NCBI GenBank assembly: GCA_951406725.2
Contig: OX597827.1
Span: 80,414,001-80,478,000, forward strand
DNA length: 64,000 nucleotides
Origin: Octopus vulgaris
Taxonomy: Eukaryota
Direction of reading: 5' to 3'
Below the pieces are notes generated by a model. That model searched no databases. It saw only the letters and a program-made list of their open reading frames with translations, and was not told the DNA's origin. The translations under genes and the position numbers were made by a program. This document shows, in pieces, positions 7,271 through 57,629 of this stretch (positions are counted from its first letter, which is position 1; every line of letters starts with the position of its first letter).

Positions 7271-7303
7271 CTGATTGGTTGATGACTTAAACAACAGACC
7301 AAT
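7271..7303. promoter_or_regulatory. Inverted CCAAT pair upstream of the P1 leader
   Basis: CTGATTGG, then a 20-bp gap, then CCAAT. Present upstream of all six leaders whose upstream region is visible. Confidence 0.75.
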
Positions 7304-7558
7304 GATGATGTCCTTTTAATATTGATTTGCATTAAGTAGGGTACAAGGGAGGGTTGTGACATTCTATATTTGATCACAAGCCTTAGTATAACTTGATTTA
7401 GTTTTGAGTACATTTCTCCTTAAATTTTATAAAAAACATTAGCATTAATATTTTCCACTAAAATTTTTCTATCTTTATATTTCAATAAGACAAATTATTT
7501 TGAAGCTTCTATTTTGTGCCTAACTCACACAGTTTGAGTGTAACTGGAAGATACATAG

Positions 7559-7561
<3 letters not shown>

Positions 7562-7596
<35 letters not shown>
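7562..7596. repeat. (TA)n microsatellite
   Basis: Read directly. Confidence 0.95.
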
Positions 7597-7599
<3 letters not shown>

Positions 7600-7865
7600 G
7601 TCTGAAATGTTCAACATTGAATATCGCTACATAATAATTTATTATTTGTGTGTGTGTGTGTATGTATGTATATATGTATTGCATGTGATGTATACAATTC
7701 TTATCCTTAGACACTTTGTTTCTCTAAAATCTACACTGCTATATAATATACTTAACAAGGAAAGTGTGGAAGTGTCTTGTGAAGTTGTTTGTCTCTTCTA
7801 TGTTCTACATTGTATCATAGTATATTCACATAGAGGAAGTCAGTTATGGTCCTGCAATAACAGAA

Positions 7866-7942
7866 TTACACTTGTTTCACTGGTGTTTCTTCACTAGAAT
7901 CTTTTGATGCAGATGTCCCATTGTTTTTATAAATATTTTGGT
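7866..7942 (-). CDS. PCDH: Protocadherin P2 terminal coding exon (exon 4)
   Basis: Acceptor ttctaaattccag. The phase-1 join with exon 3 gives DQNIYKNNGTSASKDSSEETPVKQV-TAA. The same 77-nt block occurs in all six complete units. Confidence 0.85.
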
Positions 7943-8269
7943 CTGGAATTTAGAAACAAAATACAAAATTATGATGGTGATTCTTTTATTATCGATGAAG
8001 TAAACAATATGAAAAGCAATGTATTCACAAATTTGAGAGTTTGTTAGCACACATACGTACACACACATAAGTGTGTGTGTGTGTATGCATGACATGGAGA
8101 CTGTTTCTTTTGCTTACTTATCTGTATCACTTGGACTAGTCTCCATCTGTTCGCATGAATTTATCTCTATCACCATTTTACATAACCTCATCCTTCTCAC
8201 TGTTTCCCCATATAACCACACATAAACATGAATGTCAACAAGCTGAGACTGATTTTTGAATACCTGTGC

Positions 8270-9740
8270 TTACATTGCAATTGTATGCGTGTTTACAAAT
8301 CCTGTCATTCTTGTGTGACTTCTGTTTGCATTTGAGCTTTAGAGAGGAATATAATAGAATGAAATTAACTAGGAATTCAATCATTAATAATTGTCATAAC
8401 GACATTAGTGACAAAGACAAGACAGTCGACAGTTTTGAATTGTTATGTATGAATAATTTAGAGGAGGATGCTTTGAACTATTCTGAGAGTTTTAAATCCT
8501 TTGCGATTCAAAGCCTGATACGACAAATGCGACATATTTTTCATATGTCAATAAAGAAGTTTATTCAGTTATGAAACTCAAAGAATTTCCAAGTTCTGAC
8601 TTTTGTGGGAAATTCTTCATTTTAGAGCAAAAAACATTCCTAGTTGTGAAATATTGCAATTGATATAAAGATCTTCACTGAGCAATGAACTCACAAATTT
8701 CTGAGCCAACCAGTGTTTTATCAACACTGTGGGTCATTGAAAACAGTTCCATTAAAGAAAACTTCATGGACACGATTAAGGTTTGGATCTTGGTAACTCC
8801 TGAGTGGATATAACTGAACAAACTTAAGTTCAGAAATGTTGTTTATCACAAGTGTCAAAAACGGGTCACATTGCCAAGGCTTGTCGTTCTATATATTCAA
8901 GTAATTCAACAATAGTAATTGTCATTTATTATTATCTTTAGTGTTGCATAATTCATCATACATGCAACAATCTCACATATCATTATAGACACCAACATGT
9001 CACAGGTCACTGACTGCTTTTGATTGGTCTGTCTGTCTCTTTCTTCATTTTTAAATTAAATTCTAATTGAAAATTAGCTTTCGGAACATTTTAAGTCACT
9101 CAAAATGGATTATCAATTTTGTGTCTCAAAAATATGATAGTTTCAAACAAGTCCTTACTTCTTAGTTTTAAGGTATGCTCGTAATCAGAGCTAGTCACTG
9201 ATCTCATAGTTCCAAAAAAAAGGTAGGATGTATATTCCTAAAATATATTCCTATATAAAGGTAGGATATATTCCTAAACTTGTAGTTACAGCTGGTCAAT
9301 CTTTTGCAAAAACCAAACATTCAATCACTTAGTATAGCAAGAAATCATAACACCTATTGAATCTTTGAAATGAATGACTGCTATTGTCATGATTTTCAAA
9401 AAGGGAGCATTATTCTGGGAGTCTGTGGTGGTTTCCATACAACACTGAATTGGCACATGCTTCAAAGTAGTTGCTACTGAGAAGCTAGAGGATATTGTAC
9501 ATTGAATTAATCATAATTCCATATACATCTCAAAGAACATTCTTTCCCAAAATCCAATTCATTAAGCACTATCAACAATGCTGTCCAGATTATTTCAGTA
9601 TAATCTTCTGCATTATCTATTTCTCTGGAAATATTCAATTTAGCATTGTCTTCTTTTGTGGCAAATAACCTGGTGCAGTTGCTCACCAATACACTACAGT
9701 TATTTATGCAATTGATAAGCCAACTCATAATATTCAACCA
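8270..9740 (-). mobile_element. Possible highly decayed hAT-like transposase remnant in P2 intron 3
   Basis: Non-repetitive, protein-like broken frames with only weak hAT-like patches (e.g. ACANSVL, which recalls PCxxHSLNL). Boundaries are uncertain. Confidence 0.3.
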
Positions 9741-10439
9741 TGAAGGAGAATCTGCTAGATTTATTGAAGAGGATTAGCCGACAGAAGTACTTATTCTTCC
9801 TTGTAAATGATAATGATCTTAGCTGTGACATTATTCTGAAACTTAAAGCAACCAACATGACCGAGATACAAGAAACCAGTGATAAATCCTGTCATCTTCA
9901 TCATAGTGATCAGATAAAATTTCAAGTCAAACTAAAAACTTCAAATATTCAAAATGAAATGCTTGTTTATTGTAAATTGCACAATTTTTCAATGCAGCTT
10001 GCATCAGGAAATCTGTAAATTGTATCTAAAACTGATGAAACATTTATTACTCCAACTAACATGACTACTAGTGATTCCTGTACTTTAAATCAAGAAGAAA
10101 AACTAGATTCATTTATTCCAAGACTCTCTCAGTGATTCTTGAGTAGATGAAAGCAATTCCATAAGAATAAACAAAATAAAACAGAAAATCCAGATTATCT
10201 GCTGAGTTCAAATATTCACATCATTTAAATGAATATCCATCCGTTCCCATTACCTTATGTACCAGTGTATCATGTAATCACAGATTTCTTACTTCTTGCA
10301 TGTGTCAACTCCAATGAATTCATGCCTCTTTAGGCCCAGTCTACATTGGAATGATTGTGCTAATACTACAATTGTACATATAACAAATTCTTTTATTTGA
10401 GTGTTACAATTCTATATTTAAGAGATGAGGAATTGTGTA

Positions 10440-10754
10440 CATTATTTACATTTGACAGATATTTGTCCTCATCTTGTTTGTTGTTAACACAACATTTCAG
10501 CTGCTATACCCTTCTGCCTTCATCAGGTGTCTTGGGGAAATTTCGAACCCGGGTTCTCATTCCTAAGGTATTTTTCGATGTTATTACTATTATTATTATT
10601 CAGGTCACTGCCTGGAATTGAACTTGGAATCTTGGAGTTAGTAGCCCCATGCTCTTAACCACTATGCCATATCCTCGTGGGCTGGAGGATATATCAGCCA
10701 AAATGTGTTAACAACAAATAAGATGAGGACAAATATTTTCAAATGTAAATAATG
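10440..10754. mobile_element. Penelope-like element remnant: inverted terminal segments, hammerhead-like motif and tRNA-like module
   Basis: Inverted arms of ~52 bp or more (cattatttacatttga...tcaaatgtaaataatg). The interior matches 55185-55372, which adjoins a Penelope endonuclease tail. Confidence 0.7.
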
Positions 10755-11029
10755 GAGTGTTACAGTTCAAATGTTGTAGAAATGCATTTACTACAAATCA
10801 ATACTCATACTTAGGTCTGTCATGAAGTCTGGGACTCATAAGATTGGAGCTTAATTCAATTTTTACATTAAAAATATTCATTACAATGCAAACACACATA
10901 TTTAAATTTAAGAATAGCAGAAAACAGGCCATCAATATTTAATTGAAAGTTTAACGTCTCTCTTCTTGATATAAATATCTGTTACATCGAAGAGATATTA
11001 AAGGAAATATAGCAATTACATTTACTAAC

Positions 11030-11183
11030 CTGACACTCCTGGTATTTCTTCGTAATGTTTCAAGTCTCCTTGTCTACCACTTCTCTTGGATGACATTGTA
11101 TCTGATGTATAGTTACAAACCATAGTAGCATTATCTTCCACAGCATCATCACTTGATGTCACCACAACAGGTTGACAGTATTT
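11030..11183 (-). CDS. PCDH: Protocadherin P2 exon 3 (cytoplasmic, 154 nt)
   Basis: Acceptor tttgtcaacag|AAATAC and donor TCAG|GTTAGT. Encodes KYCQPVVV...LKHYEEIPGVS, in frame with the exon 2 donor. Confidence 0.88.
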
Positions 11184-11354
11184 CTGTTGACAAACAAACG
11201 ATAAAGAAATGTGAGAAGACACCAAACAATGGAAGTTACAATCAACATGGAGAGAGAACAATTTAATATTGGAATGTATTATGGAAGTTAAAACATATTC
11301 AAAGAGATTTCATTGTTCACTTTTACAGAGAGAAAATGTAATGTTTCCACTTAC

Positions 11355-13730
11355 TGGGGTAGGTTTTGGTAAAGTTCTCGACTGAACCGAAGATTCATAT
11401 TTGTTCTGTAGCTGACCTTCTGCATAACATTCACTCTTGGATCTCTCAGAATAGATATTCCGCTTCACCATCTCTTCTGCATTCCTCGACATAGCAACAG
11501 AAGTGTTAGTCTGGTACAACAATTGTTTCATCTCTGCTCTACCTTGGTAGGCTGTATTCTTTGTGGCAGCAGCTGTGTTATCTCTGTGTTTAATACATTT
11601 CATAATACACAGTGTTATAGAAACAACAATAGCCACTGATATTATTACTGCTGATGATACAATGATAATAACCCATGTCATATGGACCCGACCTGAAGAT
11701 TGTAAAGGTCCACTCTTCGACATTGGTGATGTCTCGTTACTAACAGCCAACACCAAAGTGACACTAGTTGTTGACGACTGAACTGGACTACCACTGTCCT
11801 TCACAACAAACACCAGCTCATAACTTCCAGCATCATTTAGATAAACTTGTCTGGAGAAGGATAAAGCACCACTGTGTGAGTTCATACTAAACAACTGTTT
11901 AGCATTTCCTTGTTTGATTGCATATCTGAGGAAAGCATTGTTTCCACTGTCCCCATCAGAGGCTCTCAAAACTGTGATGTCACTCTTACTCTGCGGATGG
12001 TACTGCACATTTAGCGTGTAAGGGTCACTACTAGGATATGTAAAATACGGAGCATTGTCATTTTGATCTAGAATCTCAACAACAACATTCGCTGTGTCAT
12101 TCAGAGATGGGCTTCCATTGTCTTTGACAAAAACCTCAAACTTATACACATCTTGTTTCTCTCTGTCCAATGACATGGTCGCTGAAATGAAGCCATAACT
12201 GGTGATGAGAAATGGGAGATTGGATTTTTCTTTACGCAGCAGAGAATATGTGAGTTGTCCAGCAGATCCAAGATCAGGGTCAGTGGCATTGACAAAACCA
12301 ATAGGGAAGTCTTTATCTTTGTTTTCGTAGGTGAGGAATTGGAATGTATCTTTGGTAAACTGTGGTTGTACATCGTTGATGTCAGTCACTTGGATAGAGA
12401 GGCTTTTAACACTTTTGAGAGGAGGTAATCCTTTATCTTGACAGGAGACAGGAATGTTATAGTGTCCTTGTGTTTCTCTGTCCACTGGTTTGTTTAGAAT
12501 GATTTTATATTCTTTAGATCCCATTGACTGTAGTTTGAATGTATCATGTTTGATATCACAGCTGACCTCTCCATTTTGTCCCACATCATTGTCAGTGACC
12601 ATCACATAAGCAAGGAAACTACCGACTTTGATGTTTTCAGAGATGGTTCCTGTGTTATAATTGAGTGCATTAACATAATCTATATCCATAGAGGGAGGAT
12701 TATTGTGTTGGTTGATAACATTTACCAGAACAGTTGCTATGGAATTGAGTGGAGGGCTGCCTCCATCCCTGGCCTCTATAAACAATTCATAGGTTTTCTT
12801 TTTTTCCAACTTGGAGTATTTACTCAAGAAAATGCTTCCACTGGTTTCATTTAAGTGAAAATAGCTTTTTGCTAGATCTGATGTTTTGGGGCTGAAATGG
12901 AAAGTAATTTTACCATTTTCACCTGAATCAGCATCCGTTACAGATAAAACAATGATGGGTTTAGACTTGTGATGTGTGCTTTGTATGGATATATTGTATA
13001 GAGGTTTAGAAAACTCTGGTGGGTTGTCATTCACATCTGTTATCGAGATATTTATATTCAAAATACCTTGTTTTGATGGCGAACCTCCATCTTTAGCTAT
13101 GACTTGTAGTAAATATGTATCTTTGACTTCTCTGTCTAATGATTCTTTTAAAACTATTTTCAGAGAAGAAATACCATCAGCTCTTTTAGAAACTGACAGA
13201 GAGAATGGTTCTCCATTCTTTGATTTCAATTTATATTGTATTAATGAGTTTTGAAATCCTACATCTTTGTCTATGGCATTTGGTAGTGATACTTTAGAAC
13301 CTTTACTATCATTTTCATCAAACTGTATATTAACTTGCTTTAAAGGAAACTCCGGTTCGTAGTCATTAATATCTTCTATTACTATTTTGACTTTTAATAT
13401 TTTTGTGAAACTATCCACTTTCTTTATAATAACTTTAACAGTTCTGGAACATTCTTTGTTGAATGTGCAGAGATCTTCTGCATCCAGTGTCTGAGCAGTG
13501 TACAGTTTACCTGTTTTGGTGATATTAAATAACTGTGCCACCTTTCGTTTGAATTGACTGAATGTTATCAAATGTTGGTCAGATGGTTTAACATTGTCTA
13601 AAAGTTTAGAATCGGCAGCAATGTCTGCTACATATGTTCCTGGACTTCTCTCTTCTTCCACATGGTAGGTAAGGTCTATGGTCAAGACACAGTGGACCAG
13701 CGACAATACAAAGGTCAATGGCAGGAACAT
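11355..13730 (-). CDS. PCDH: Protocadherin P2 large exon (SP, EC1-6, TM, proximal tail)
   Basis: Six cadherin repeats (DxNDN, DRE, DxD, AxDxG motifs), EC1 C-x5-C motif, hydrophobic TM. Donor CCA|GTAAGT at 11354; the unspliced ORF continues to 11310. Acceptor at 13786-13787. Confidence 0.97.
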
Positions 13731-14779
13731 GTTGCTGTTGAGTGTCGGAACTGGTTGAATCTGTCAGGAATGATGAAGATTGAACCTGAAATAGAAATAC
13801 AATTTCCTCAATTTCAATTTTTATATATTACACATTGATTCATGCAACAAAGAGATCAGTACATAATTTTTGTGTGTAAATTTAGCAGAGAATGAATGGA
13901 AATGTTCATTACTTTTCCCTGTCATTATTCTAAGCTGTGAGAGATCCTGTAAGAGATGGAACTTTGTGTGACATCATACCATGCCACTTCATATCCATGT
14001 GTTACTTGCCATAATTTGTCGTGGAGAGATTAAGGGTATTGATGCAGAACAGGCATAATCGATGATAAATCGAACATATCCTTTGTATGCTATTCTTATT
14101 GTTTCTTTGTAGTAGTCACATATGGTGGCTGTGAGTGTTCTTTCATTCTCATAAATGTAATTCCTCATATTTTAGTCTTTTGAGTATAGTCTGTGATGTT
14201 ATTTGGTATCACTGTTAGAAGGGAGATGGTAGTTTGGGAAAAAAGTACAATTTACCTATTTTTGTTCTAACTGGACCTATTATGTACTACTGGGTTGGCA
14301 CTGCACTTTGAAAGACTTCAAAGCAACGAGTCATAAGCTGAAAGGCAAAGTAGAAAATGCTTCTTCATGGGTATGCTAGACACATGTGAGAGAAAGACTG
14401 AGGCTGTGAGTGATGAAAATCTTCAGTAAGTGGTAAAACCAAATGGTTGCTATATGGTTAGAGTGGTTATGGCAGTTCCTAGTTTGAAGTGATGGCTGCA
14501 TGGATGACAATGGGATAAAATGTACAAAAGTGTAGACAAAAAAGAACCTGCACATAACTGGTTGTATAAGTGGTACTTAGCACCACTCGAGAGAGCAATT
14601 CTGTCAGAACATGCTGACATCATTGCAATCTTCAGTTGATAGTCAATGAAAGGAGTTCTCTGCATTGCAAGCTGTATGTAAAAACAAGTGGCTGATGTAG
14701 GGTGGCAATAGCCATGAAGCTCTGTCAGAGAAATACTTGTGTATATATTTTGTTTGGTAGGAAAAGATGGTGTACAACA

Positions 14780-18465: not shown

Positions 18466-18467
<2 letters not shown>

Positions 18468-18508
<41 letters not shown>
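18468..18508. repeat. (TA)n microsatellite next to a SINE tail remnant
   Basis: Read directly. Confidence 0.9.
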
Positions 18509-18511
<3 letters not shown>

Positions 18512-19864
18512 CATGATTTAACATCCATCTTCCATACTGACATGGGTGGAACAGTTTGCTGGCAAGCTGAAGGTTCCAGCCTGATTGAGCTTGGTTTTTA
18601 TGGCTTGATGTGTGTGTGCTGGGTGCTTTTAATGTGACACCAGCACAAATGCTTTTATGTGAAGCTAGCTTGAGTGTTTTTATATGGCACAAACCCTTGA
18701 CTCTAGCAAACCAATCTTTTTCACCAGGGAAAGCAGCCAGCCTTAACACTTCTGCTGTGGGGGACAGGATTATTATTATTTTTTTTACTGAAGTTGGAAA
18801 TATGACAGGAACATTACCATAAAATGCAGTGCATAAAGTAAGCAAAGAGTTATGATGAAACAAATGAGTTAAAAACTAGTCCAGTAGAATTCTAAAAAAT
18901 AGTTGAGAAGAATTCTAAAACATATCCTAGATGATACACAATATATTCCTCCTGAAATAAGTAATCTTTGATGGAAGAAGTATTAAATATTCTCATGATA
19001 ATTAATAATAAATGTTAAAAGAATTTTGAAACAAAATTAACTGATGGAAATTTTATCGCTAAGGAAATAACAGAAAAAAAAAGCAGGCAAGATTTATAAT
19101 TTGGGTTCTGTTTTAATAATATTGTTTTAATGGATAAAGTTTAAATATTAAACATTTTTACCAACATAATCCAATTAACTTTAAATAAAACAATATGATT
19201 TAGATTTTTTTTGAGATGAGATTTTCAATGAACTCCTATTTGATTTATTATCATAGCAGGAGTAAGATAAAATAAGTATATTTAGAGTTTCATCAATTTA
19301 AATTAGAGCTGGACCATAACAATATATGCTACCATCTCCATTCTTGACAGTTAAGAAGGGATTCTAATATGTCTGCTGCTAGTAACTCTAAGCAAAATAT
19401 AAAACACACCATTACTTCATTACTGCTAAAACTCTTCACATTACAAAAGGATTTAGACACAATCTTCTTTCATATATTGAATACAAACATGTGAAGATAT
19501 CTTTCACATGCCATCTGCTATTGTGGTACGATATTAGATCTTAGTTAAATCAAAAACAAACAGACACAATAACACTATATTGTGGAGAGTGTTGTCTCTG
19601 ATTACTGATCAATATGCATAACGAATTGATACGACTAGTCTTGTTTTAATGGATACAGTCTAAATATTAAGCTCTTTAATCAACATAATCCAATTAATTT
19701 TAATTAAAACAATATGAAAAATATTAGTGAAAAATAAGGGTGAATTATTCTTCAGTGTCTTTGTTCCCTTATTACTATTTAAATATATTAAAAACAATAT
19801 ATTACAGATTAAGTGAGATTTATAACATAAAATGAGATTATAAAAGATTCAAATAGAAACTTAC

Positions 19865-20037
19865 CTTTTCAATAATTATATCATTGGTTATTCAGTGAGG
19901 AAGAGAAAGATGTATTGTTGTAGAAAGATCCATTGTAAGTGCTGCTGTAATGGTGTGACAATGGCTGTTATGGTGATGGAGTAGTGTAGCACGTCAGGCA
20001 GAGAGTCTGCTGCTAGGAGAGGGTTGCATGTGTCACT
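19865..20037 (-). other. Predicted non-coding first exon of P2
   Basis: Leader copy with two substitutions versus consensus. Donor AAAG|GTAAGT; Inr-like TTCAGTG. Confidence 0.8.
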
Positions 20038-20251: not shown

Positions 20252-20285
20252 CTGATTGGTTGAATGACTTCAATAAAGGACCAAT
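20252..20285. promoter_or_regulatory. Inverted CCAAT pair, P2 promoter
   Basis: CTGATTGG, 21-bp gap, CCAAT. Confidence 0.75.
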
Positions 20286-20792
20286 GAGAATTGTCTTTAG
20301 TCCTAATTTCTTTTCACTCAGCTGTATATTTTACATTTATAGTAAATGATTGTCAGTGTTTTTCAAGAACAGTGACAATATCAATATCTAGTCTTACTTT
20401 CATAAGTATTTTTTTGGAAATTATAAAGAAAATGGTGATAATAAATATTTTCATTAAAATTCCTTTTTAGATTTATAATTTAGATATCCTAGGACAATAT
20501 TCTTTGTGCAACTCCATTATATAAATTTAGACCATTACATGTCAGAGCTAAAGTAAGTTTCTTTTTATTAAGTGTTGATCATATTTCAGTTTTTTCAATT
20601 GTAGTAACTTAAAAATATTGCAGTAGGAAAACTCATCTGAAACTGGTTGAATCTGTGTCAGTAGAGAGAATTAAAGCTTTTCAGAAACTGCTATCTTTGG
20701 GGAATAACTAATGCTATATATTAGAGATACGAAGGAATGTGTAATGTTGATTGTGTGTATGGAACAAATGTAGTTATGCTACTTCAATATTA

Positions 20793-20869: not shown

Positions 20870-20974
20870 CTGGAATTTAGAAACAAGATAGATTTTGATA
20901 TTAATTCAACACAAGTGGGAATAGAAAAATGTATTAGTTATACAAGCATTTATTGATGCTGAAGAACTGCAGAA

Positions 20975-28137: not shown

Positions 28138-28310
28138 CTTTTTAATAATTATATCATTGGTTATTCAGTGAGAAAGAGAAAGATGTATTGTTGTAGAAAG
28201 ATCCATTGTAAGTGCTGCTGTAATGGTGTGACAATGGCTGTTATGGTGATGGAGTAGTGTAGCACGTCAGGCAGAGAGTCTGCTGCTAGGAGAGGGTTGC
28301 ATGTGTCACT
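28138..28310 (-). other. Predicted non-coding first exon of P3
   Basis: Consensus leader copy with donor and Inr-like start. Confidence 0.8.
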
Positions 28311-28513: not shown

Positions 28514-28546
28514 CTGATTGGTTGAATACCCAAACAGGAGACCAAT
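28514..28546. promoter_or_regulatory. Inverted CCAAT pair, P3 promoter
   Basis: CTGATTGG, 20-bp gap, CCAAT. Confidence 0.75.
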
Positions 28547-28949
28547 AAAGATGTTTCATTAATATTGATTAGTTTTGATGAAATAGGTACCTCATGTTTA
28601 TAATAGGGGACAAGTTAGATGAAGGGACATTAATGCTTTAATTACGAGCCTTACTAATATTGATAACTAGATTCAATTTCGAGTCCATTTTTGTTTACAT
28701 ATCAGAAAATGTTATTTTTAATGACAACATGGCATTAAAATATTCTAAGATTTACAAAAAATTATTTTGTGGCCTTCACTCCCTCTTCTTATTCATACAA
28801 TTTGTAATAAATATTAAACTAACTTTAATGAATATTTAAGATGTTCCAAATTGAATATATTTATATAATAATAATTTATCTCTACAATGTAATTTTTAGC
28901 AATTAAAACATTTTTTTCTGTTTATGTATGGACACCATGTCTTAGAGTA

Positions 28950-36698: not shown

Positions 36699-36750
36699 CA
36701 TGTGTCACTGAAGTTGTATGTTTTGTGGAAGTACGTCCATCTAATGATAC
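36699..36750 (-). promoter_or_regulatory. Ectopic 52-bp copy of the P4 core-promoter/Inr segment inside P4 intron 1
   Basis: catgtgtcactgaagttgtatgttttgtggaagtacgtccatctaatgatac is identical to 40164-40215. Confidence 0.6.
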
Positions 36751-40001: not shown

Positions 40002-40174
40002 CTTTTTAATAATTATATCATTGGTTATTCAGTGAGAAAGAGAAAGATGTATTGTTGTAGAAAGATCCATTGTAAGTGCTGCTGTAATGGTGTGACAATG
40101 GCTGTTATGGTGATGGAGTAGTGTAGCACGTCAGGCAGAGAGTCTGCTGCTAGGAGAGGGTTGCATGTGTCACT
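40002..40174 (-). other. Predicted non-coding first exon of P4
   Basis: Consensus leader copy. Confidence 0.8.
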
Positions 40175-40373: not shown

Positions 40374-40407
40374 CTGATTGGCTGCATGACCTAAACAGAA
40401 GACCAAT
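40374..40407. promoter_or_regulatory. Inverted CCAAT pair, P4 promoter
   Basis: CTGATTGG, 21-bp gap, CCAAT. Confidence 0.75.
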
Positions 40408-40677
40408 GATAATTTTTTTTCTTTAATATTGATTTCTTTAGACTAATTAGAAGTTAGCATATTTATTGCAGATAAAAAGAAGTTGAGGGATATTCATGCC
40501 TTTCTCACAGAAACAAAATATTGGTAATTATTTACTTTTATGAAAATTTTCCTTAGAAATAAAATATTCGAGTAAAAATTTCAGTAAAATTTATATTTGT
40601 TCATTTTTCAATAAGGATATATCTCCATTACTCTAAGATCAAACACCTTTTGTTATTTCATTAGTATTGCTGCTTTT

Positions 40678-41839: not shown

Positions 41840-42010
41840 CTGTTGACAAACAAACAATAAAGAAATGTGAGAAGACACCAAACAATGGAAGTTACAATCA
41901 ACATGGAAAGAGAACAATTTAATATTGGAATGTATTATTGAAGTTAAAACATATTCAAAGAGATTTCATTGTTCACTTTTACAGAGAGAAAATGTAATGT
42001 TTCCACTTAC

Positions 42011-44386
42011 TGGGGTAGGTTTTGGTAAAGTTCTTGACTGAACTGAAGATTCATATTTGTTCTGTAGCTGACCTTCTGCATAACATTCACTCTTGGATCT
42101 CTCAGAATAGATATTCCGCTTCACCATCTCTTCTGCATTCCTTGACATAGCAACAGAAGTGTTAGTCTGGTACAACAATTGTTTCATCTCTGCTCTACCT
42201 TGGTAGGCTGTATTCTTTGTGGCAGCAGCTGTGTTATCTCTGTGTTTAATACATTTCATAATACACAGCGTTATAGAAACAACAATAGCCACTGATATTA
42301 TTACTGCTGATGATACAATGATAATAACCCATGTCATATGGACCCGACCTGAAGATTGTAAAGGTCCACTCTTCGACATTGGTGATGTCTCATTACTAAC
42401 AGCCAATACCAAAGTGACACTAGTTGTTGACGACTGAACTGGACTACCACTGTCCTTCACAACAAACACCAGCTCATAACTTCCAGCATCATTTAGATAA
42501 ACTTGTCTGGAGAAGGATAAAGCACCACTGTGTGAGTTCATACTAAACAACTGTTTATCATTTCCTTGTATGATTGCATATCTGAGGAAAGCATTGTTTC
42601 CACTGTCCCCATCAGAGGCTCTCAAAACTGTGATGTCACTCTTACTCTGCGGATGGTACTGCACATTTAGCGTGTAAGGGTCACTACTAGGATATGTAAA
42701 ATACGGAGCATTGTCATTTTGATCTAGAATCTCAACAACAACATTTGCCGTGTCATTCAGAGATGGGCTTCCATTATCTTTGACAAAAACCTCAAACTTA
42801 TACACATCTTGTTTCTCTCTGTCCAATGACATGGTTGCTGAAATGAAGCCATAACTGGTGATGAGAAATGGGAGATTGGATTTTTCTTTACGCAGCAGAG
42901 AATATGTGAGTTGTCCAGCAGATCCAAGATCAGGGTCAGTGGCATTGACAAAACCAATAGGGAAGTCTTTATCTTTGTTTTCGTAGGTGAGGAATTGGAA
43001 TGTGTCTTTGGTAAACTGTGGTTGTACATCGTTGATGTCAGTCACTTGGATAGAGAGGCTTTTAACACTTTTGAGAGGAGGTAATCCTTTATCTTGACAG
43101 GAGACAGGAATGTTATAGTGTCCTTGTGTTTCTCTGTCCACTGGTTTGTTTAGAATGATTTTATATTCTTTGGATCCCATTGACTGTAGTTTGAATGTAT
43201 CATGTTTGATATCACAGCTGACCTCTCCATTTTGTCCCACATCATTGTCAGTGACCATCACATAAGCAATGAAACTACCAACTCTGGTATTTTCAGAGAT
43301 GGTACCTGTGTTATAATTGAGTGCATTAACATAATCAATATCAATAGATGGAGGATTGTTGTGTTGGTTGATAACATTTACGAGGACTGTTGCTATGGAA
43401 CTGAGAGGAGGGTTGCCTCCATCTCTAGCCTCTATGAATAATTCGTAAGTTTTCTTTTTCCCTAAGTTTGAATATTCCTTTAACAAAATATTTCCACTGG
43501 TTTCATTTAAGTGAAAATAGCTTTCTGCTAGATCTGATGTTTTTGGACTGAAGTGGAAAGTAATTTTACTATTTTTACCAGAATCAGCATCTGTTACAGA
43601 CAAAACAATGATGGGTTTAGATTTGTGATGTGTACTTTGTATGGATATATTATATAGAGGTTTAGAAAACTCTGGTGGGTTATCATTAACATCTATTACA
43701 GAAATATTTATATTCAAAATCCCTTGTTTTGCTGGTGACCCTCCATCTTTAGCTATGACCTGTAATAAATATGTATCTTTGATTTCTCTGTCCAATGTTT
43801 CTTTTAAAACTATTTTAAGAGAAGAAATACCGTCAGCTCTTTTAGACACTGACAGAGAGAATGGTTCTCCATTCTTTGATTTTAATTTATATTGTATTAA
43901 TGAGTTCTGAAATCCAACATCTTTGTCTATGGCATTCGGTATTGATCTTTTTGCATTTTTGCGATCATCTTCACTAAACTGTATGTTCACATTATTCTTA
44001 AGAAACTCTGGTTCGTGGTCATTGATATCTTCTATTACAATTTTGACTTTTAATATTTTTGTGAAGCTATCCATTTTCTTTATAATAACTTTCACAGTTC
44101 TGGAACATTCTTTGTTGAATGTGCAGAGATCTTCTGCATCCAGTGTCTGAGCAGTGTACAGTTTACCTGTTTTGGTGATGTTAAATAACTGTGCCACCTT
44201 TCGTTTGAATTGACTGAATGTTATCAAATGTTGGTCAGATGGTTTAACATTGTCTAAAAGTTTAGAATCGGCAGCAATGTCTGCTACATATGTTCCTGGA
44301 CTTCTCTCTTCTTCCACATGGTAGGTAAGGTCTATGGTCAGGACACACTGGACCAGTGAGAATACAAAGGTCAATGGCAGTAACAT
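42011..44386 (-). CDS. PCDH: Protocadherin P5 large exon
   Basis: 806-aa ORF with six EC repeats and TM. Donor at 42010; acceptor at 44443-44444. Confidence 0.97.
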
Positions 44387-46745: not shown

Positions 46746-48877
46746 AAATTAACTCCCTGAAGCTGCAAATTAATTGCATTTCTCAAAAATGTAGAATGTT
46801 TTATTTGTCTAACTTTTGGCAGAGATCAATCATATTTCTAGTCTCAAGAAACAATATGATACTCTCATATAAATTCAACAAAATTCTCTGTATAACAATA
46901 ACTTATTATTTTGGTACAATTTAAAAAATATTCTATCATTAACTTGATTGTCTGCCTTTGTATCAATTCCTTTTAATCCAAAACAGTGTGAAAAGGAAGC
47001 AAATATAGAAACAAAATTGGACCCAATGTGGTGGTGCTTTAGAAGGGTCTTACTCACAAGCATAGCTAGAGTGTGTGCCATGCGGGACAGCCCTTCCATT
47101 TGCTGCCTCCCCGGACCCCACAAAAAACACACTGCCTAAAGCAGACCCAAAAGTGCCACCTGGTGCGGATCACCCCCATCCCCACCAGCTATGCTAGTGG
47201 TCTTATTGATCTTAAAAAGTACCATATAAATTGAATTTGTATTGAATAATGTTACAGTCGAACACATAGGCTTTCGTGAGCCTTTATTGCTGTATCTCTT
47301 ATGGATTTGAAGTTTTTTTTGTGTTTTTCATGGAGCCTACAATTATTCTATTGTCCATTTAAAAGCTTAGTGTACTAACTTCGGCAGTACATATTCTAAA
47401 ATTGGAACATTTAAAAGCTTAGTAGGGACAATGATAGGAACATTAAGAATATTACAGAAAGATAAATGTAAATAGAATTTGAAGCTATTAAAGTAACATT
47501 CAGGGTAGCATGGTGGATTGGCAGATTCATTGGTGTGTGCCATGTGGTATTTGTTGTGGCTCTTTACATTGAGTTCAAAGCCAACTGTACCTTCCATCCT
47601 TTTGGGGTCGATAAAATAAAATACCAGTCAAGTACTGAGGTCAATATAATAGAATACTAGTTCGAGATGTAATAGTACAGTAAGAGTCCAAATCCAAACT
47701 CAATTGTGGGGCTCTAACAATAGATGAACATTGGTTGGAAGTACATTTGCTATTACGTCAATGTTTTGTCTATGAGTAACACCTTATATTACTGTTCAAC
47801 ACAACACACAAACACACACACACATCCTATCATTTACTGACACATACACAGATTATCTTCCTGTAAAGAGTAGAACCCATTAAAAAAAATTATGCAAAAA
47901 GGGAAAATGAAAATGTAATTCTGAAATAAATTATATTTCTAGATTTCAATGATATGCAACATCTTTCACTTACAATACAATAGCCTATGATAGAAATAAT
48001 ATTCGTTATCTCAAAACATGGATCATGGTGAAGAAGACGATGGTGATGATGACAACGATGACAATGAATGCAGTTTTAGAGTAGGTATACACAGTATTCC
48101 AATGAAACGAAAATAATGTTCTTGTAATATTAAATCTTTTAATATTTCATAAAACTGAATAATGATAATAATAAAGATAAATATTTTGTTGGAGTATCTT
48201 GAATATTAAATTTACCTTTAAATTTTGCTTACTTTTATTGTCCTTATAAATAAATTAAAATGCTTGAGCATGGGAGAAAATGCATAAAATACATATATAT
48301 TTCAATGCTATCCTATATATTTCACCAATTTCTAAAACTGCTGAACTTTAGCAATACACGACACCATTTTTGTTCCTTCCTAGTGGTTCTATGTCCAGCC
48401 TAATGTCTAACATACCACTGACTCATTTCTACTACAATCTATATACTGTTAGCAGATATATTTAAGAACTGTAGCATGTTTTTGCATGCTTTGTATTAAA
48501 TCCTTTAATACATAGCCCTCATATACCATCAAGATTACATCTTTCTTACAGTAAAACAAACACATCTATAACACTTTATTAAGTAAACTGTTCTCTATTG
48601 TTAGTTATCAATATATGTACCAGATATTATAGAGAAACATAATAATGCTTCAATGGAATTAAGTCATAATTTTAAACATCTTAAATAATATCATTCAATT
48701 AATTTTGTGATAAAACAATTTAGATAACATTACTGAGGAATATGTAGGAAATATTGTTCATGTTGTTCAATCTCTTTGTTCTCAGGTTAATATCAAATAT
48801 GTTAAAACAATATTATTTCAAGTTCAGTGAGATTTATTACATGAAATGAGATTATAAAAGATTAAATAGAAACTTAC

Positions 48878-49050
48878 CTTTTTAATAATTATATCATTGG
48901 TTATTCAGTGAGAAAGAGAAAGATGTATTGTTGTAGAAAGATCCATTGTAAGTGCTGCTGTAATGGTGTGACAATGGCTGTTATGGTGATGGAGTAGTGT
49001 AGCACGTCAGGCAGAGAGTCTGCTGCTAGGAGAGGGTTGCATGTGTCACT
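48878..49050 (-). other. Predicted non-coding first exon of P5
   Basis: Consensus leader copy. Confidence 0.8.
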
Positions 49051-49253
49051 GAAGTTGTACGTTCAATATTATTAGTAAATCCATCTAATAATATTTTGCA
49101 TGAATTTATCCTTCAAAATGATGTTTTCATAAACATTTACATATTCAAATAGCTACAATAACCTATAGTTAATCATAATTGTTTGATTTAAAAACATCAG
49201 TAATGTGAAGGCTTATCTTTGTCAGTGATTTCTTTTTATGTTTTGAAGAGAAT

Positions 49254-49287
49254 CTGATTGGTTGAATGGACTAGACAGAACACCAAT
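49254..49287. promoter_or_regulatory. Inverted CCAAT pair, P5 promoter
   Basis: CTGATTGG, 21-bp gap, CCAAT. Confidence 0.75.
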
Positions 49288-49863
49288 GGCAATATTTGTT
49301 TTAATGTTGATTTTTAAAAAAAAATTAGTAAGCAGGAGGCTTTAATATAGGGGAACATAGGATGTATAACATTCGTAACTTTCTTGAGGACATAAATAAT
49401 ATTGATAACTAGATATAATTTTTAGTTCATTTTTTGTAAACTATTTAACTATTTTGAAGTCATTGTCTACAATACCAAATTTGGAAATGAGAGGACAATA
49501 TTTCTTCAGTTTGTATCTTCATTATAGTTAATAGATGTTAATAAATTTCTATGTTACATTTTACAGAGAAAAATAAAATTATGTGGAGATGATATTTCAG
49601 TTTTTAAATCTATATTAAAATCTATATTAAATCTATATTAGCTTAATATTATTACACTGAAATATCTCATTAAGAATCAGAATGAACTCTATTTATTGAG
49701 AGAAATTCATGTTTATCTGAGAAATGGTGAGGATTTATGTAACCTTCAGTCTTTGGGAATGAACAGAAGAGATAAGAGAGATGTCTATATTGATATGTGT
49801 ACTGAATGATCTCTATCCTATATTTATACAGGAATCAGAAATTATGTCTCATCAATAATATAT

Positions 49864-49940
49864 TTATACATGTTTCACTGGTGTTTCTTCACTGGAATCT
49901 TTTGATGTGGAATTATCATTGTTTTTATAAATATTTTGAT
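49864..49940 (-). CDS. PCDH: Protocadherin P6 terminal coding exon
   Basis: aattccag| then DQNIYKNNDNSTSKDSSEETPVKHV-TAA. Confidence 0.85.
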
Positions 49941-50374
49941 CTGGAATTTAGAAACAAAATAGGACTATACAGTATTAAAAACACGACCTGTTTGTATATA
50001 TTTGCAAACAGAGGGAAAAAAAGGCATTCAGATAAATATATTTAGAAGTATGTTAACAGAAAGAAAATCAACATTTCTTGAAAATTATTGTAAAATATAT
50101 CAATATTAATTCCCAAATTTCTTTCAAACAGCCTATTTCAGCATATAATATTTACTATGAATAATTGCTATTAAATGTCTATATTTGAAATGATATAATA
50201 ACAAAAATATTACTGATTTACTTACTAAACTGATATTTCTGGTATTTTTTCATAATGTTTCATGTTTCCCCAAGTATAAAAATAGTAAGTATATTACTCA
50301 AACTAAATTGCAAATTTGTTAACATTTACATTTGAGACGAGATCAAAGTGAAATATAATCAATATAGTATTAAC

Positions 50375-50528
50375 CTGAAACTCCAGGTATTTCTTCGTAA
50401 TGTTTCAAGTCTCCTTGTCTACCACTTCTCTTGGATGACATTGTATCTGATGTATAGTTACAAACCATAGTAGCATTATCTTCCACAGCATCATCACTTG
50501 ATGTCACCACAACAGGTTGACAGTATTT
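50375..50528 (-). CDS. PCDH: Protocadherin P6 exon 3
   Basis: 154-nt exon; donor G|GTTAAT. Confidence 0.88.
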
Positions 50529-50699
50529 CTGTTGACAAACAAACGATAAAGAAATGTGAGAAGACACCAAACAATGGAAGTTACAATCAACATGGAAAGA
50601 GAACAATTTAATATTGGAATGTATTATTGAAGTTAAAATATATTCAAAGAGATTTCATTGTTCACTTTTACTGAGAGAAAATGTAATGTTTCCACTTAC

Positions 50700-53075: not shown

Positions 53076-54259
53076 GTTGAATTGTTGGTCCAATGTGAAG
53101 ATTTCCAGATATGCAGATGATTGAGTCTGAAAAAAGAAATACAACTTTAATATTTTCATTATTTGAGCTGATATGATTCAGAATTGCACAATAATAATAG
53201 ATTTGAATGGAGAAAAAGAAAAACAATGGCTAAAATTCTGAATTTAGTAACCGAAAGCAGAAATGCGATCATATATTCAAAAGAAATACATGCTACACTA
53301 CTAAAGAAACTGAGTAATTACATATGAGGATATGTATTTAATCTGGTTATTGTAAAATATACTAAGTTACTGGCTGAAAAAAATAGTTCTGTATCAAATT
53401 CATCAGTTTATATAGCGTCAAGATTGTACAACATGTAATCAGATTGTATATGATCCACGAGGATGACAGCTCACATAGGATCTAACTGCATATTATTTGA
53501 TTCTGATGACACAGAAGCATGTCTTTCAGCTATGACTTCTATTATCTTTTTTTGCCTTAACATAATTTACGAATAACAAATTAAAAAATTTTTTTAAATG
53601 TCAACTTAAATATTGATCTGAACAGATTACCTTTCATGACAGGATGGGTCAAAATGATGATGGCAATTAGTAGAAATAATCGTTGATAATTTACATCTTC
53701 TTGTTCATAAATCAATTTATTTCCATACATGCAACTTTAATGTCTAGTTCTTTTTCACTGTCTTCCATTCAGAGTCACAATGCACAACCAACATGGAATT
53801 TACTTCTTTCTCACCAACTCAGGTCATCAACATTTATTACCCAACACTCATAATCATACAGCATTACACATATTTTGTACAATCTCTTTGTTGTCAATCT
53901 GTAGTGAGACATGTCAGCACTATTTTGTTGTGGTGACATAACACAGTCGTGCTACACTCAAAACATTCAATCACTGCTGGCCGTGGAAGGATACACGTGA
54001 CTAAGTGGTGAAGTGTGAGTTTCGAAAGGCAAAACCCAGTTCCTGAGAAGACATAGAGATCTAAACACATCAGTTGTTTGTTCTGACAACAAAACATTGC
54101 TGAATTAATGCTGATCAGAAAACAGCATTCATACAACTATAGGATCTATACCCTTACCTCACAACCACTAGAGAAACTCATTGGAAATTTAGATTTGCAG
54201 CCAAATACCAGTTCTAACTATCTTGATGTTTATTAAGAAATTAACTCATGTCTCACTAC

Positions 54260-55160
54260 ATGAGACCCAAGAAGACATGGGATGAAGTGGTGAGGACCGA
54301 TCTCAGGATGTTGGGCCCTACGAAGGAGATGACAATGGACTGAGATGTCTGGTGATAGGAGGTTCTTAACCCTTTTGTTCCCATATTTCCATTGAGATGC
54401 TCTGTGTTTCTTTCAATTACTTTCAAATATAACAAACAATTTAGTAAAATAATTTAGTTATCATTAAGCTAGTGTTAAGAACATAAATTGTGACTAAGGT
54501 TTGGTGGAAGATTTTTATTCAAAACCTATGAAAACAAGATATTTGTACAACAGAGCCAGAGCTGGTTTTGGTAATCAAAGGGTTAAGAAAACTTACCCAC
54601 ATCAGCAAAACTGCGTTCTAGAAGCACAATATGTTCCAACCACATGTAATAAAACTTTCCACACACCCTACCCCTTCATACACTAGGCTTATCTCTCACT
54701 CTCCAATCCTGTCCTCATGGCTCTGCTCCCTGTATCATTGCTATCCCACTGTCCCCTACCCCATCTATATACCCAGGTTTTCACCAGTCACTGCACCACG
54801 CTTGGCCCTTATGCTTCTTTGGTAATACCCTGCTACTTATATTATGACCTCCATACCTTGAGGGTACTTGCCACCACCTGCCTCTCTCTTCCTTTACCCA
54901 TTTATATTCTGATCCCTGTTTCCTTGTGAGTATGTGCCAGCACTTCACCACCGTCTCTCTCTCTTGTGCTCTTGCTGTCTCCCGTACTCTCTCTCTCCCT
55001 TTTTGTCTTGCTCTTCCCTCAGGCTGGATAGCCAGGTACCTCCTCCACAGCAGCACACCTGTTTCTTTCCTCATTCCTGATCACTCTCTCTCTCTCTCTG
55101 GCTGGGTAACCATGTACCTCCTCTACAACAAGACACTTTTGTTTCTGACTCTTTGACTCT
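54260..55160 (+). mobile_element. RTE-like LINE 3' end and pyrimidine-rich tail, interrupted by a piggyBac MITE
   Basis: RPKKTWDEVVRTDLRMLG at ~54262-54318. A CT-rich tract resumes after the MITE. Confidence 0.55.
54370..54582. mobile_element. piggyBac-type MITE, family A, second copy
   Basis: TTAA|CCCTTT...AAAGGG|TTAA; homologous to 1166-1385. Confidence 0.8.
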
Positions 55161-55184
55161 CCATCACACTGGAACCTTTCATCA

Positions 55185-55570
55185 ACAATGTTTCGGCTGA
55201 TATACCCTCCAGCCTTCATCAGGTATCTTGGGGGAAATTTCAAACCTGGTTTCTCATTACTAAGGTACTTTTCGATGTTATTATTATTATTATTCAGGTC
55301 ACTGCCTGGAATTGAACTCAGAATCTTGGGGTTAGTAGCCCGCGCTCTTAACCACTACACCATATGCCCGTGGGCAATTATGGAGTGAATTTTAGGGCTT
55401 ACTTATCTAATATTTTTCTATCCTTCCTTAATACCGGTTCCCATATGCTATTCATATCTGCACTTGGTCTGCTTAGGAGGTTGCTGTGTCCTAGCATATG
55501 TGCTGCTTCTTTTAGTTTTCGTATTTCCCACTGGTGTTCTCTGTCTATTCCTTTAACTTCATCCCACAGG
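55185..55570 (-). mobile_element. Penelope-like retroelement 3' end (endonuclease tail, tRNA-like module, hammerhead motif)
   Basis: Minus strand encodes LWDEVKGIDREHQWEIRKLKEAAHMLGHSNLLSRPSADMNSIWEPVLRK, resembling the PLE GIY-YIG C-terminus. Downstream lies CTGATGA-A-GGCTG...CAGCC-GAAA. Confidence 0.8.
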
Positions 55571-57190
55571 GAATTTGTTCATAAAAATAGTCACACAACA
55601 ATTTCTTTCAGATATTAGCAGTTATAATTGCTAGCAGGACAAATTTACAGAAAATGTATGTTATAAAGAAAGTTCATATTAACCTGTTTTTATTTTATTG
55701 ACTTTTATGGGATTTGTAAAGAAATGTAATTAAATGTAACAACACATCGTATTTGGCCTTTCCCCATTTCTGATGTCTATCACTTAATAATGATTAATAA
55801 GATATATATCACCAACAAACCACCTGCAAGTCATAGGTAACTGGTCAATGCTTTATATATGATTCAGGAAAATTGCAGTACTGCTGGGGTTAACCTAATT
55901 TTTGGCTTACTTAGGGTAGATGAAATAAATGATGTTTTAATACGTACATAAAAAGAAACTAATTCATACGGATTTGTTGAAAATCTTAATCCCCATATCC
56001 AAAATAGTATACAATGAAATCAAAATGTTTCGGATAGAAACATGAGATGATGTAAGTACAAATCAACGAAACATCTCTGACAATCTGGAAACGTCTGGAT
56101 ACATGAACATTAGAAATCTTTTTCACAACTGACCGATAGAACAACAACACATCCAAACACTCATAGACACACCAAGAACAGTTTATTCGGTTTTGTACTG
56201 AACTTATATAACTTGTCCAGAAAATATGGGAAAAATTATGTTTGCAATAAATAAAAATTTAAAACAAAACAAACACCAGGTGGCCCCAAAATATTAGTCA
56301 ATATTGAATAGAACATTAAAAAAAGAAAAGACTGCTTGATATAATCTAATCACAATACATTTATATTTTGATGAAATATGCATTTTAAGGTATTAGTTAG
56401 GCAAGGTATAATGTCATATCATAAAATCTTGACATATTTATAAACACATGCATGGATAAGTGAAAATATGTGTCATATGTAAAGGATGAAGATCAGGATA
56501 AATTTCCTTTCAAAACGTACTTCACAGATGTTGTGAAATTATCAGATACTTTTAACAAAAGTTAAAAAATTTCATTTCTAATTGAGTATGAAAATATTTT
56601 TTAATTATTACAACTCAAAACAGAGCTGGTACTTAACAGAAGGATATGAAATTCTTTTCCCACATTCTGTTATTTCTATTCACTTTCTGATAGCTATGAA
56701 ACATCAGCCATTATCCTTAGCCCAAGATTGTAACAAACCTTTGCCTCATAATTGCTTACAATCTACCATGCTATAAACAGGTTTAAAGATATTGTAGCAT
56801 CATTCTGCACATTTTGTATCATACAAGTTAAGATACCTTCTGTATAGCATCGACTATATACTTACAATATTATATCTTCCTTACAACAAAAGCAGCCCAA
56901 CATTATAATATTACATTATAGACTTTTTGTTACTGATCAATATATAAATCAAATATTACAAAGACATGAATAATGCTGTTTCTATGGAATAAATGCAAAA
57001 TATTAAAAATTTTAACCAATAATATTCAATTAATTTTTTTAAAAAAGCCATATGAACACTATTGAAAAATTATAAATGAATTATTGTTCAATCTCTTTGT
57101 TCTATTCTTTGTATTCAATGTCCAAATAGATTTAATATTAAGGAGTAATTATATCAAATGAGATTATAAAAAGATTAAATAGAAACTTAC

Positions 57191-57363
57191 CTTTTTAATA
57201 ATTATATCATTGGTTATTCAGTGAGAAAGAGAAAGATGTATTGTTGTAGAAAGATCCATTGTAAGTGCTGCTGTAATGGTGTGACAATGGCTGTTATGGT
57301 GATGGAGTAGTGTAGCACGTCAGGCAGAGAGTCTGCTGCTAGGAGAGGGTTGCATGTGTCACT
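57191..57363 (-). other. Predicted non-coding first exon of P6
   Basis: Consensus leader copy. Confidence 0.8.
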
Positions 57364-57595
57364 GAAGTTGTACGTTTTGTAACAGTACGTCCACCTAATA
57401 ATAGTCTGCATGTATTTACCCTTAAAGATGGTGTCTGTTTGCTATTGTCAATGACTATTTACATACACGTACAGATATAGATACATTTTTATATAACTGC
57501 AATAGTCAATTGCTCAACATAATTATTTGGTTTAATAACATTAATAATGGGACTGCTTCTCTTTTTTAGTAATTTCTTTCTGTGCTAATGAGAAT

Positions 57596-57629
57596 CTGAT
57601 TGGCTGCATGAGCTAAACAGAAGACCAAT
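57596..57629. promoter_or_regulatory. Inverted CCAAT pair, P6 promoter
   Basis: CTGATTGG, 21-bp gap, CCAAT. Confidence 0.75.

What the first reader, a model, noticed from the sequence alone, without database searches (positions are those of the whole stretch)
7271..57629. Conserved promoter element: inverted CCAAT pair with fixed 20-21 bp spacing ~200 bp upstream of each leader
Seen: CTGATTGG(T/C)T followed 20-21 bp later by ACCAAT at 7271, 20252, 28514, 40374, 49254 and 57596. The ATTGG lies 203-236 bp from the predicted start. Spacer and flanks have diverged while both motifs and their spacing (about two helical turns) are kept, which points to selection rather than conversion. Established: CTGATTGG/CCAAT is the NF-Y consensus, and vertebrate Pcdh promoters share a CTCF-bound conserved element. 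Inference: an NF-Y-based analogue of that element. The leader also holds a third CCAAT (AACCAATG) and a CRE-like TGACGTG.
Basis: partly seen in the sequence, partly recalled or inferred. Interest (0 to 1): 0.72.

Follow-up and report, generated by a model that had tools for sequence, protein, structure and literature searches.

The report
Twin CCAAT boxes, octopus protocadherin promoters
Six neighbouring octopus protocadherin genes each carry the same back-to-back pair of CCAAT boxes upstream of a shared non-coding first exon, most likely a docking site for the common activator NF-Y and not a copy of the CTCF switch that vertebrates use for these genes.

Summary
The element is real. All six pairs lie at the stated coordinates, upstream of a near-identical 173-nt non-coding leader of minus-strand octopus-type protocadherins (top hit O. 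vulgaris, 94%).

The copies are paralogous, so recurrence alone proves little, but the boxes stand out. They are the two longest invariant runs in a promoter block that is only about 73% alike (permutation p=0.0015). They fit the NF-Y consensus RRCCAATSR (proximal 6 of 6, distal 4 of 6). The 270-bp block ends about 30 bp beyond them, whereas similarity beside coding exons fades within 30-90 bp.

It is not a CSE: no CGCT, no CpG in the pairs, no CTCF-like core, and each gene is complete. Best reading: an NF-Y proximal promoter module shared across this subfamily. The start site is inferred and no binding or RNA data were obtained. Ten literature searches showed no description of it.

The parts
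7271..7303 (.). Inverted CCAAT pair (proximal box reads CCAAT on -, distal on +), 25 bp centre to centre
20252..20285 (.). Inverted CCAAT pair, 26 bp
28514..28546 (.). Inverted CCAAT pair, 25 bp; distal box departs from RRCCAATSR at the S position
40374..40407 (.). Inverted CCAAT pair, 26 bp
49254..49287 (.). Inverted CCAAT pair, 26 bp; distal box departs from RRCCAATSR at the first R
57596..57629 (.). Inverted CCAAT pair, 26 bp
49051..49320 (-). Example of the conserved proximal promoter block, about 270 bp (about 73% pairwise), with the pair at its upstream edge; each of the six units has one
6894..7066 (-). Inferred non-coding leader exon, 173 nt: Inr-like start, TGACGTG at +42, third CCAAT at +151, splice donor
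19865..20037 (-). Leader exon (2 differences from the common form)
28138..28310 (-). Leader exon
40002..40174 (-). Leader exon
48878..49050 (-). Leader exon
57191..57363 (-). Leader exon
63681..63853 (-). Seventh leader exon; its CCAAT pair would lie beyond the window end
7320..7327 (-). AATCAATA (ONECUT/CUX-like, motif recalled) just upstream of the distal box; also 28563-28570, 40427-40434, 57647-57654; one change at 49305-49312; lost at 20301-20308
58267..61428 (-). Complete protocadherin coding region, three coding exons, 868 aa
49864..53075 (-). Complete protocadherin coding region, 868 aa
40982..44386 (-). Complete protocadherin coding region, 868 aa
29123..35947 (-). Complete protocadherin coding region, 868 aa
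20793..24699 (-). Complete protocadherin coding region, 866 aa
7866..13730 (-). Complete protocadherin coding region, 868 aa
1..568 (-). 5' part of a seventh protocadherin large exon, cut by the window start

Best explanation
Each protocadherin of this tandem array is a full gene with its own promoter. The back-to-back CCAAT pair is a double NF-Y site that forms the upstream edge of a promoter of about 270 bp kept by purifying selection. SHOWN: the motifs, their invariance, the block boundaries and the gene structure. INFERRED: two NF-Y trimers bind together, keep the short stretch between the upstream paralogue's 3' end (its stop codon is only 507-637 bp away) and the start site free of nucleosomes, and fix initiation at the Inr of the leader. 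All members therefore share one basal, broadly competent promoter. Differences between members would come from the diverged parts of the promoter, intron 1 or distal enhancers, not from the pair.
For: (1) The two pentamers lie in the two longest invariant runs (10 and 6 columns) between the upstream stop and the leader, in 3 of 3 alignment modes; permutation p=0.007 for the longest and 0.0015 for both; 1.4e-5 for all ten box columns at background rates. (2) RRCCAATSR (consensus from PMC11802806, passage) occurs 21 times in the window: 10 in 1.8 kb of promoter, 7 in leaders, 4 in 40.8 kb of other DNA, 0 in 17.6 kb coding; two by chance in one promoter p=5e-5 to 3e-4. (3) The only varying base from -3 to +5 of the proximal box toggles A/G at an R position; an intronic pentamer in a poor context survives in only 4 of 6. 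(4) Similarity extends 270 bp upstream of the Inr and stops about 30 bp past the distal box, while at four coding-exon edges it is 0.52 or less beyond 30 bp and 0.40 or less beyond 90 bp. (5) Two units are 98% alike in intron 1 but 76% in the promoter, and no significant tract covers the boxes. (6) 25-26 bp falls in the 24-28 bp class of double CCAAT in human NF-Y peaks and above the 19-bp minimum (PMC4889920, section 14 and passages). (7) NF-Y maintains nucleosome-depleted regions and start-site fidelity in mouse cells (PMC6624317, abstract).
Against: No binding, accessibility or RNA evidence was obtained. The boxes lie 207-266 bp from the inferred start, against -60 to -100 for mammalian NF-Y, so either the start is further upstream or the architecture differs. 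The distal box misses the full consensus in 2 of 6. Spacing constancy is not significant and helical phase to the Inr is not conserved (p about 0.13-0.18). Only six related copies from one genome were compared. The invariance tests assume independent columns and the boxes were picked after the fact. Intron 1 holds an equally long invariant run (10-11 columns, AT-rich). One conversion-like tract does lie in the promoter (-159 to -113, p=0.006). Octopus NF-Y subunits were not looked up. The human spacing data do not state orientation (0 occurrences of the word).
Confidence: 0.68

Rival explanations
1. Functional analogue of the vertebrate CSE: the pair is the element through which near-identical promoters compete for a shared enhancer or a limiting factor, giving stochastic protocadherin choice without CTCF. 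This can coexist with NF-Y binding.
For: Same relative position in every member, as for the CSE. Paralogues differ mainly in about aa 100-350 (78-88% identity) and are about 99% alike in the 3' half, the pattern expected of a recognition code (EC2-EC3 role recalled). Regulation of cephalopod clusters is called enigmatic (PMC10658181, passage).
Against: No CGCT in 5.6 kb of promoter, leader and intron-1 block, no CpG in 6 of 6 pairs, no CTCF-like core above shuffles. An inverted pair has no direction to form an oriented array. Genes are complete duplicates (PMC9068888, passage). Octopus promoters are reported to carry scant methylation (PMC9476566, passage). O. vulgaris neurons express about 21 PCDH each, some ubiquitous and some cell-type enriched (PMC9712504, passages).
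Confidence: 0.12
2. The boxes are selected but bound by another factor, such as a CUT-class protein (ONECUT or Cux/CDP), a TALE homeodomain complex or a Y-box protein.
For: AATCAATA lies just upstream of the distal box in 4 of 6 units, with one change in a fifth. Invariance of the proximal box runs about two bases past the NF-Y consensus. 83% of octopus brain cells are onecut-positive (PMC9712504, passage).
Against: Both boxes keep the NF-Y flanks, and their distance is an NF-Y class. The CUT-like word is AT-rich, lost in one unit, and occurs 8 more times elsewhere in the window. These motifs are recalled, not scored with matrices.
Confidence: 0.1
3. No function: the pair is a relic of duplication, refreshed by gene conversion spreading from the homogenised leader.
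For: Flanks are homologous (72-73%). Conversion is evident in leaders, coding exons and intron 1. The box blocks of two units are 88% alike. A chance ATTGG-N20-CCAAT pair exists in 4 of 6 large coding exons.
Against: Equally homogenised coding exons leave no such halo. The boxes are more invariant than the sequence lying between them and the leader. Conversion does not explain the fit to a 9-bp consensus twice.
Confidence: 0.06
4. The element belongs to the upstream paralogue's 3' end, as a 3'UTR or termination signal, or acts mainly as a barrier to read-through.
For: The distal box lies only 507-637 bp past the previous stop codon. No poly(A) signal is conserved in position. Read-through fusions of PCDH genes were noted during annotation (PMC9712504, passage).
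Against: Homology is continuous from the boxes to the leader and absent between the stop and the boxes. The distance to the Inr varies by 33 bp and to the stop by 130 bp. An inverted pair suits a double-stranded DNA site.
Confidence: 0.04

Closest known systems
Double-CCAAT NF-Y promoter module, 24-28 bp class (PMC4889920)
   Same: Two boxes fitting RRCCAATSR, 25-26 bp apart centre to centre, above the 19-bp minimum for double binding, upstream of a start site.
   Different: Inverted orientation (not addressed in the text read); AT-rich spacer with no evident E-box or Sp1 site (by eye); 207-266 bp from the inferred start instead of 60-100; repeated across a tandem gene family; binding not shown.
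Vertebrate clustered protocadherin CSE (CTCF site with CGCT box; PMC7811963)
   Same: A short conserved element at a similar distance upstream of each member of a protocadherin array.
   Different: No CGCT, no CpG, no CTCF-like core, no matching exonic second site, no directionality; full-gene duplicates with their own 3' exons and a non-coding first exon instead of variable exons spliced to constant exons.
Coleoid protocadherin sub-arrays (PMC9068888)
   Same: Head-to-tail multi-exon genes, full-gene duplication, homogenisation by conversion; top protein hits are Octopus and Argonauta protocadherins.
   Different: The main text has no occurrence of 'promoter'; the leader exon and the CCAAT pair do not appear in the passages read.
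MHC class II Y box (recalled)
   Same: The proximal box has the same CTGATTGGY reading on the + strand.
   Different: No X-box/RFX partner was looked for or seen; the partner here is a second CCAAT.

Membership tests
NF-Y CCAAT box / double-CCAAT module | Intact CCAAT pentamer | tested here: met
   12 of 12 boxes
NF-Y CCAAT box / double-CCAAT module | Flanks RRCCAATSR (PMC11802806) | tested here: met
   Proximal 6 of 6; distal 4 of 6, the other two miss one flank base each
NF-Y CCAAT box / double-CCAAT module | Distance of at least 19 bp, commonly 24-28 or 35-37 bp between middle As | tested here: met
   25-26 bp in 6 of 6
NF-Y CCAAT box / double-CCAAT module | Position 60-100 bp upstream of the start site | tested here: inconclusive
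   207-266 bp from the inferred Inr; start not measured; TATTAAAC lies 60-68 bp after the proximal box in 4 of 6
NF-Y CCAAT box / double-CCAAT module | Binding by the NF-YA/B/C trimer | not testable with these tools
   Needs EMSA or CUT&RUN
NF-Y CCAAT box / double-CCAAT module | NF-Y subunits encoded by the organism | not tested
   No genome held; planarian subunits are described in PMC11802806
Vertebrate Pcdh CSE (CTCF site) | Conserved element at a similar distance upstream of each member | tested here: met
   6 of 6 promoters inside the window
Vertebrate Pcdh CSE (CTCF site) | CGCT box | tested here: not met
   0 in 5,618 bp of promoter, leader and intron-1 block; 54 elsewhere in the window
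Vertebrate Pcdh CSE (CTCF site) | CTCF-type core motif | tested here: not met
   Best match 3-4 mismatches of 14 in each block, no better than shuffles; consensus recalled
Vertebrate Pcdh CSE (CTCF site) | CpG whose methylation blocks binding | tested here: not met
   No CpG in 6 of 6 pairs; one CpG per leader, in TGACGTG
Vertebrate Pcdh CSE (CTCF site) | Second oriented CTCF site in the exon (eCBS) | tested here: not met
   The 4 matches with at most 2 mismatches are intronic and unit-specific
Vertebrate Pcdh CSE (CTCF site) | Variable first exons spliced to shared constant exons | tested here: not met
   6 of 6 complete genes carry their own 3' exons; model matches the O. vulgaris protein
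Vertebrate Pcdh CSE (CTCF site) | Stochastic promoter choice through enhancer loops | not testable with these tools
   Needs single-cell isoform data and chromatin contacts
ONECUT/CUX site | AATCAATA-type word conserved above background | tested here: inconclusive
   4 of 6 exact, 1 variant, 1 lost; motif recalled

The most novel reading that the evidence does not exclude
Octopus reached stochastic protocadherin barcoding by a route that needs neither CTCF nor CpG methylation. Interchangeable promoters, each with a symmetric NF-Y pair and an identical leader, compete for a shared enhancer or a limiting factor. The pair also walls each start site off from the upstream paralogue's transcript ending 500-640 bp away, so read-through or antisense firing could make neighbouring genes mutually exclusive in a neuron.
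Probability: 0.12. Interest if true: 0.82.

Novelty: new variant of a known kind. Interest (0 to 1): 0.45.

Why it matters
How cephalopod protocadherin clusters are regulated is described as an open question (PMC10658181), and CTCF/cohesin mechanisms have been expected by analogy with mouse. This gives a concrete promoter anatomy for one octopus subfamily and argues against a CSE-type CTCF site at these promoters. It names 33-bp targets that can be checked in ATAC data or reporters. It also warns that 5'-end or leader reads cannot be assigned to individual paralogues. CCAAT boxes in a promoter are common, so the surprise is moderate.

Tried and rejected
No whole genome was held, so only 6 promoters could be compared. 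The run search listed 24 runs, all kept as contigs, with no RNA holder listed; this is no evidence either way. No read-level data were obtained, so the start site, the leader splice and the upstream 3' ends remain inferred, and no cross-species promoter sequence was seen. A metagenome scan with part of the leader gave 0 matches. An exact look-up of six intron-reading ORFs found 0 of 6. Three look-ups of earlier findings returned nothing.

Rejected ideas: (1) The conserved block 500-640 bp further upstream as a second regulatory element: it is the last coding exon of the previous gene. (2) The leader as a coding exon: acceptor-to-ATG distances are 46-57 nt in all three phases. (3) RNA structure as the reason for leader identity: z=0.32, 122 of 200 shuffles fold as well. 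(4) Helical phasing between pair and Inr: not significant. (5) An ERSE (consensus recalled): no CCACG nine bases after the proximal box, by eye. (6) The exonic ATTGG-N20-CCAAT pair as an eCBS-like site: neither box fits RRCCAATSR (0 coding matches).

PMC3160964 was irrelevant. Albertin 2015 was not held, Wang and Ragsdale 2017 was not seen, and only one small supplement of PMC9068888 was searchable; these sources may already mention the leader or promoter.
Full report
CONTEXT. The window holds six complete and one partial protocadherin gene, all on the minus strand. Pfam finds cadherin repeats. The best of 520 homologues is an O. vulgaris protocadherin (94%, 868 aa), followed by Argonauta hians and other Octopus proteins (120 listed, only 7,999 candidates scored). 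Splicing three coding exons per gene gives 866-868 aa without internal stops in 6 of 6, and the C-terminus matches the O. vulgaris protein. So each unit is a whole gene, as reported for coleoids (PMC9068888, passages). The order along the transcribed strand is: last exon of the previous gene, 507-637 bp, CCAAT pair, about 210-240 bp, 173-nt leader, intron 1, large exon.

THE LEADER. Seven copies differ by 0-3 of 173 bases and end in a strong splice donor. An Inr-like site (consensus recalled) at their 5' edge is the only one shared by all six promoters. Acceptor-to-ATG distances fall in all three phases, so the leader is non-coding for the main frame. It shows no unusual folding. The start and the splice are inferred from sequence only.

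OBSERVATION. The 203-236 bp distances, the third CCAAT and TGACGTG are confirmed. But the copies are paralogues, and the spacer (72%) and the downstream promoter (73%) remain clearly homologous. Measured as in the NF-Y literature, middle A to middle A, the distance is 25-26 bp. A length range of 1 bp or less is seen in 23 of 131 promoter and 39 of 200 intron control windows, so spacing alone is not evidence.

SELECTION OR CONVERSION. In the alignable block, 38-40% of gap-free columns are invariant, and 20% of G/C columns. The boxes lie in the two longest invariant runs between the upstream stop and the leader in 3 of 3 alignments; column permutation gives p=0.007 for the longest and 0.0015 for both. 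An independent test is the motif itself. RRCCAATSR (PMC11802806, passage) occurs 10 times in 1.8 kb of promoter, 7 in leaders, 4 in 40.8 kb of other DNA and never in 17.6 kb of coding DNA; RRCCAATCAG occurs only at the six proximal boxes. Two such sites in one shuffled promoter have p=5e-5 to 3e-4. An intronic pentamer with poor flanks survives in 4 of 6.

Similarity reaches 270 bp upstream of the Inr and at least 270 bp into intron 1. At four coding-exon edges it is 0.52 or less beyond 30 bp and 0.40 or less beyond 90 bp, although three of those edges border near-identical exons. Conversion is real: two units are 98% alike in intron 1 but 76% in the promoter, and one tract at -159 to -113 is significant (p=0.006). 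The run that spans the proximal box is not (p=0.39). Against this reading: an AT-rich invariant run of 10-11 columns also exists in intron 1, two box blocks are 88% alike, the tests assume independent columns, and n is six related copies.

MECHANISM. Most likely two NF-Y trimers occupy the pair. In human cells almost half of NF-Y regions hold two boxes, with peaks at 24-27 and 36 bp and none under 19 bp (PMC4889920, section 14 read whole plus passages). With the CC ends facing inward, the histone-fold contacts, which lie mostly 3' of CCAAT (recalled from the NF-Y/DNA structure), would point outward and not clash. NF-Y keeps the region upstream of start sites nucleosome-depleted and guards start-site fidelity in mouse cells (PMC6624317, abstract only). 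That role suits a promoter placed 756-904 bp after the previous stop codon. NF-Y has neuronal roles in C. elegans and an acoel and is present in planarians (PMC11802806, passages). Binding, accessibility and activity here are inferred. The distance from the inferred start exceeds the mammalian -60 to -100; a TATA-like word 60-68 bp after the proximal box in 4 of 6 leaves an upstream start possible.

COMPARISON WITH THE CSE. The vertebrate CSE is a CTCF site with a CGCT box, paired with an exonic site, oriented, and gated by CpG methylation (PMC7811963, passages). Here CGCT is absent from 5,618 bp of promoter, leader and intron-1 block, a recalled CTCF core scores no better than shuffles, and the pairs hold no CpG. 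CTCF is reported in squid (PMC9023564, passages), so its absence here is not for lack of the protein in cephalopods. Octopus promoter methylation is reported as scant (PMC9476566, passages). O. vulgaris neurons express about 21 PCDH, some ubiquitous and some cell-type enriched (PMC9712504, passages); a similar split is reported in Euprymna berryi (PMC12240821, passages). The element is therefore not a CSE. It resembles one in position, and whether it works like one in promoter choice is open (0.12).

NOVELTY. Ten searches (listings and abstract starts) and passages of PMC6339937, PMC9068888, PMC10658181 and PMC13218726 showed no description of an octopus protocadherin promoter element. Only open-licence papers were searchable. 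Albertin 2015 was not held, and the main supplement of PMC9068888 was not seen. A double-CCAAT module is a known kind; its inverted, far-upstream form repeated across an octopus protocadherin array appears undescribed.

VERDICT. Real and probably functional; NF-Y proximal promoter module 0.68; interest 0.45; new variant of a known kind.

Noticed in passing
window 36699-36750 (-): A 52-bp exact copy of the -41 to +11 core promoter of the unit at 40174 sits inside that gene's own intron 1, without a CCAAT pair; it looks like a short ectopic copying event.
   Followed up: partly
leaders, e.g. window 48878-49050 (-): The 173-nt non-coding leader is more uniform (0-3 differences among 7) than the last coding exon (82-89%). 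It carries three short upstream ORFs (11, 13 and 2 codons), the second in a strong Kozak-like context (recalled), which may damp translation.
   Followed up: partly
leaders +42, e.g. window 49003-49009 (-): TGACGTG holds the only CpG of each leader; it also resembles XBP1/ATF6 and HIF words (recalled). It cannot be judged apart from the homogenised leader.
   Followed up: partly
intron 1, about +345 from the Inr (e.g. window 48695-48706): An invariant run of 10-11 columns containing a homeodomain-like TAATTA-type core (recalled); intron 1 stays about 70% alike for 270-400 bp and may hold enhancer sites.
   Followed up: no
large exons, e.g. window 42010-44386 (-): Paralogues are 93-98% alike in the first 300 nt, 78-88% over about aa 100-350 and about 99% from aa 400 on, the same variable middle ectodomain pattern recalled for vertebrate clustered protocadherins.
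   Followed up: partly
window 19324-19825 and 6526-6854 region (intron 1 of two adjacent units): Two units share 98% identity in intron 1 but 76% in their promoters, marking a recent conversion or recombination tract that ends in the leader.
   Followed up: yes
window 4680-4693 (-) and 47153-47166 (-): Two single-mismatch matches to a recalled CTCF core in intron 1 of two genes, at non-homologous places; 3 of 60 shuffles gave two or more.
   Followed up: partly
e.g. window 41840-42010 (-): The 171-bp intron after the large exon is almost identical among paralogues and, if retained, gives an in-frame stop and a shorter cytoplasmic tail.
   Followed up: no
window 22697, 33939, 42378, 59420: A coding ATTGG-N20-CCAAT pair in 4 of 6 large exons; flanks do not fit NF-Y, so probably chance.
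   Followed up: yes
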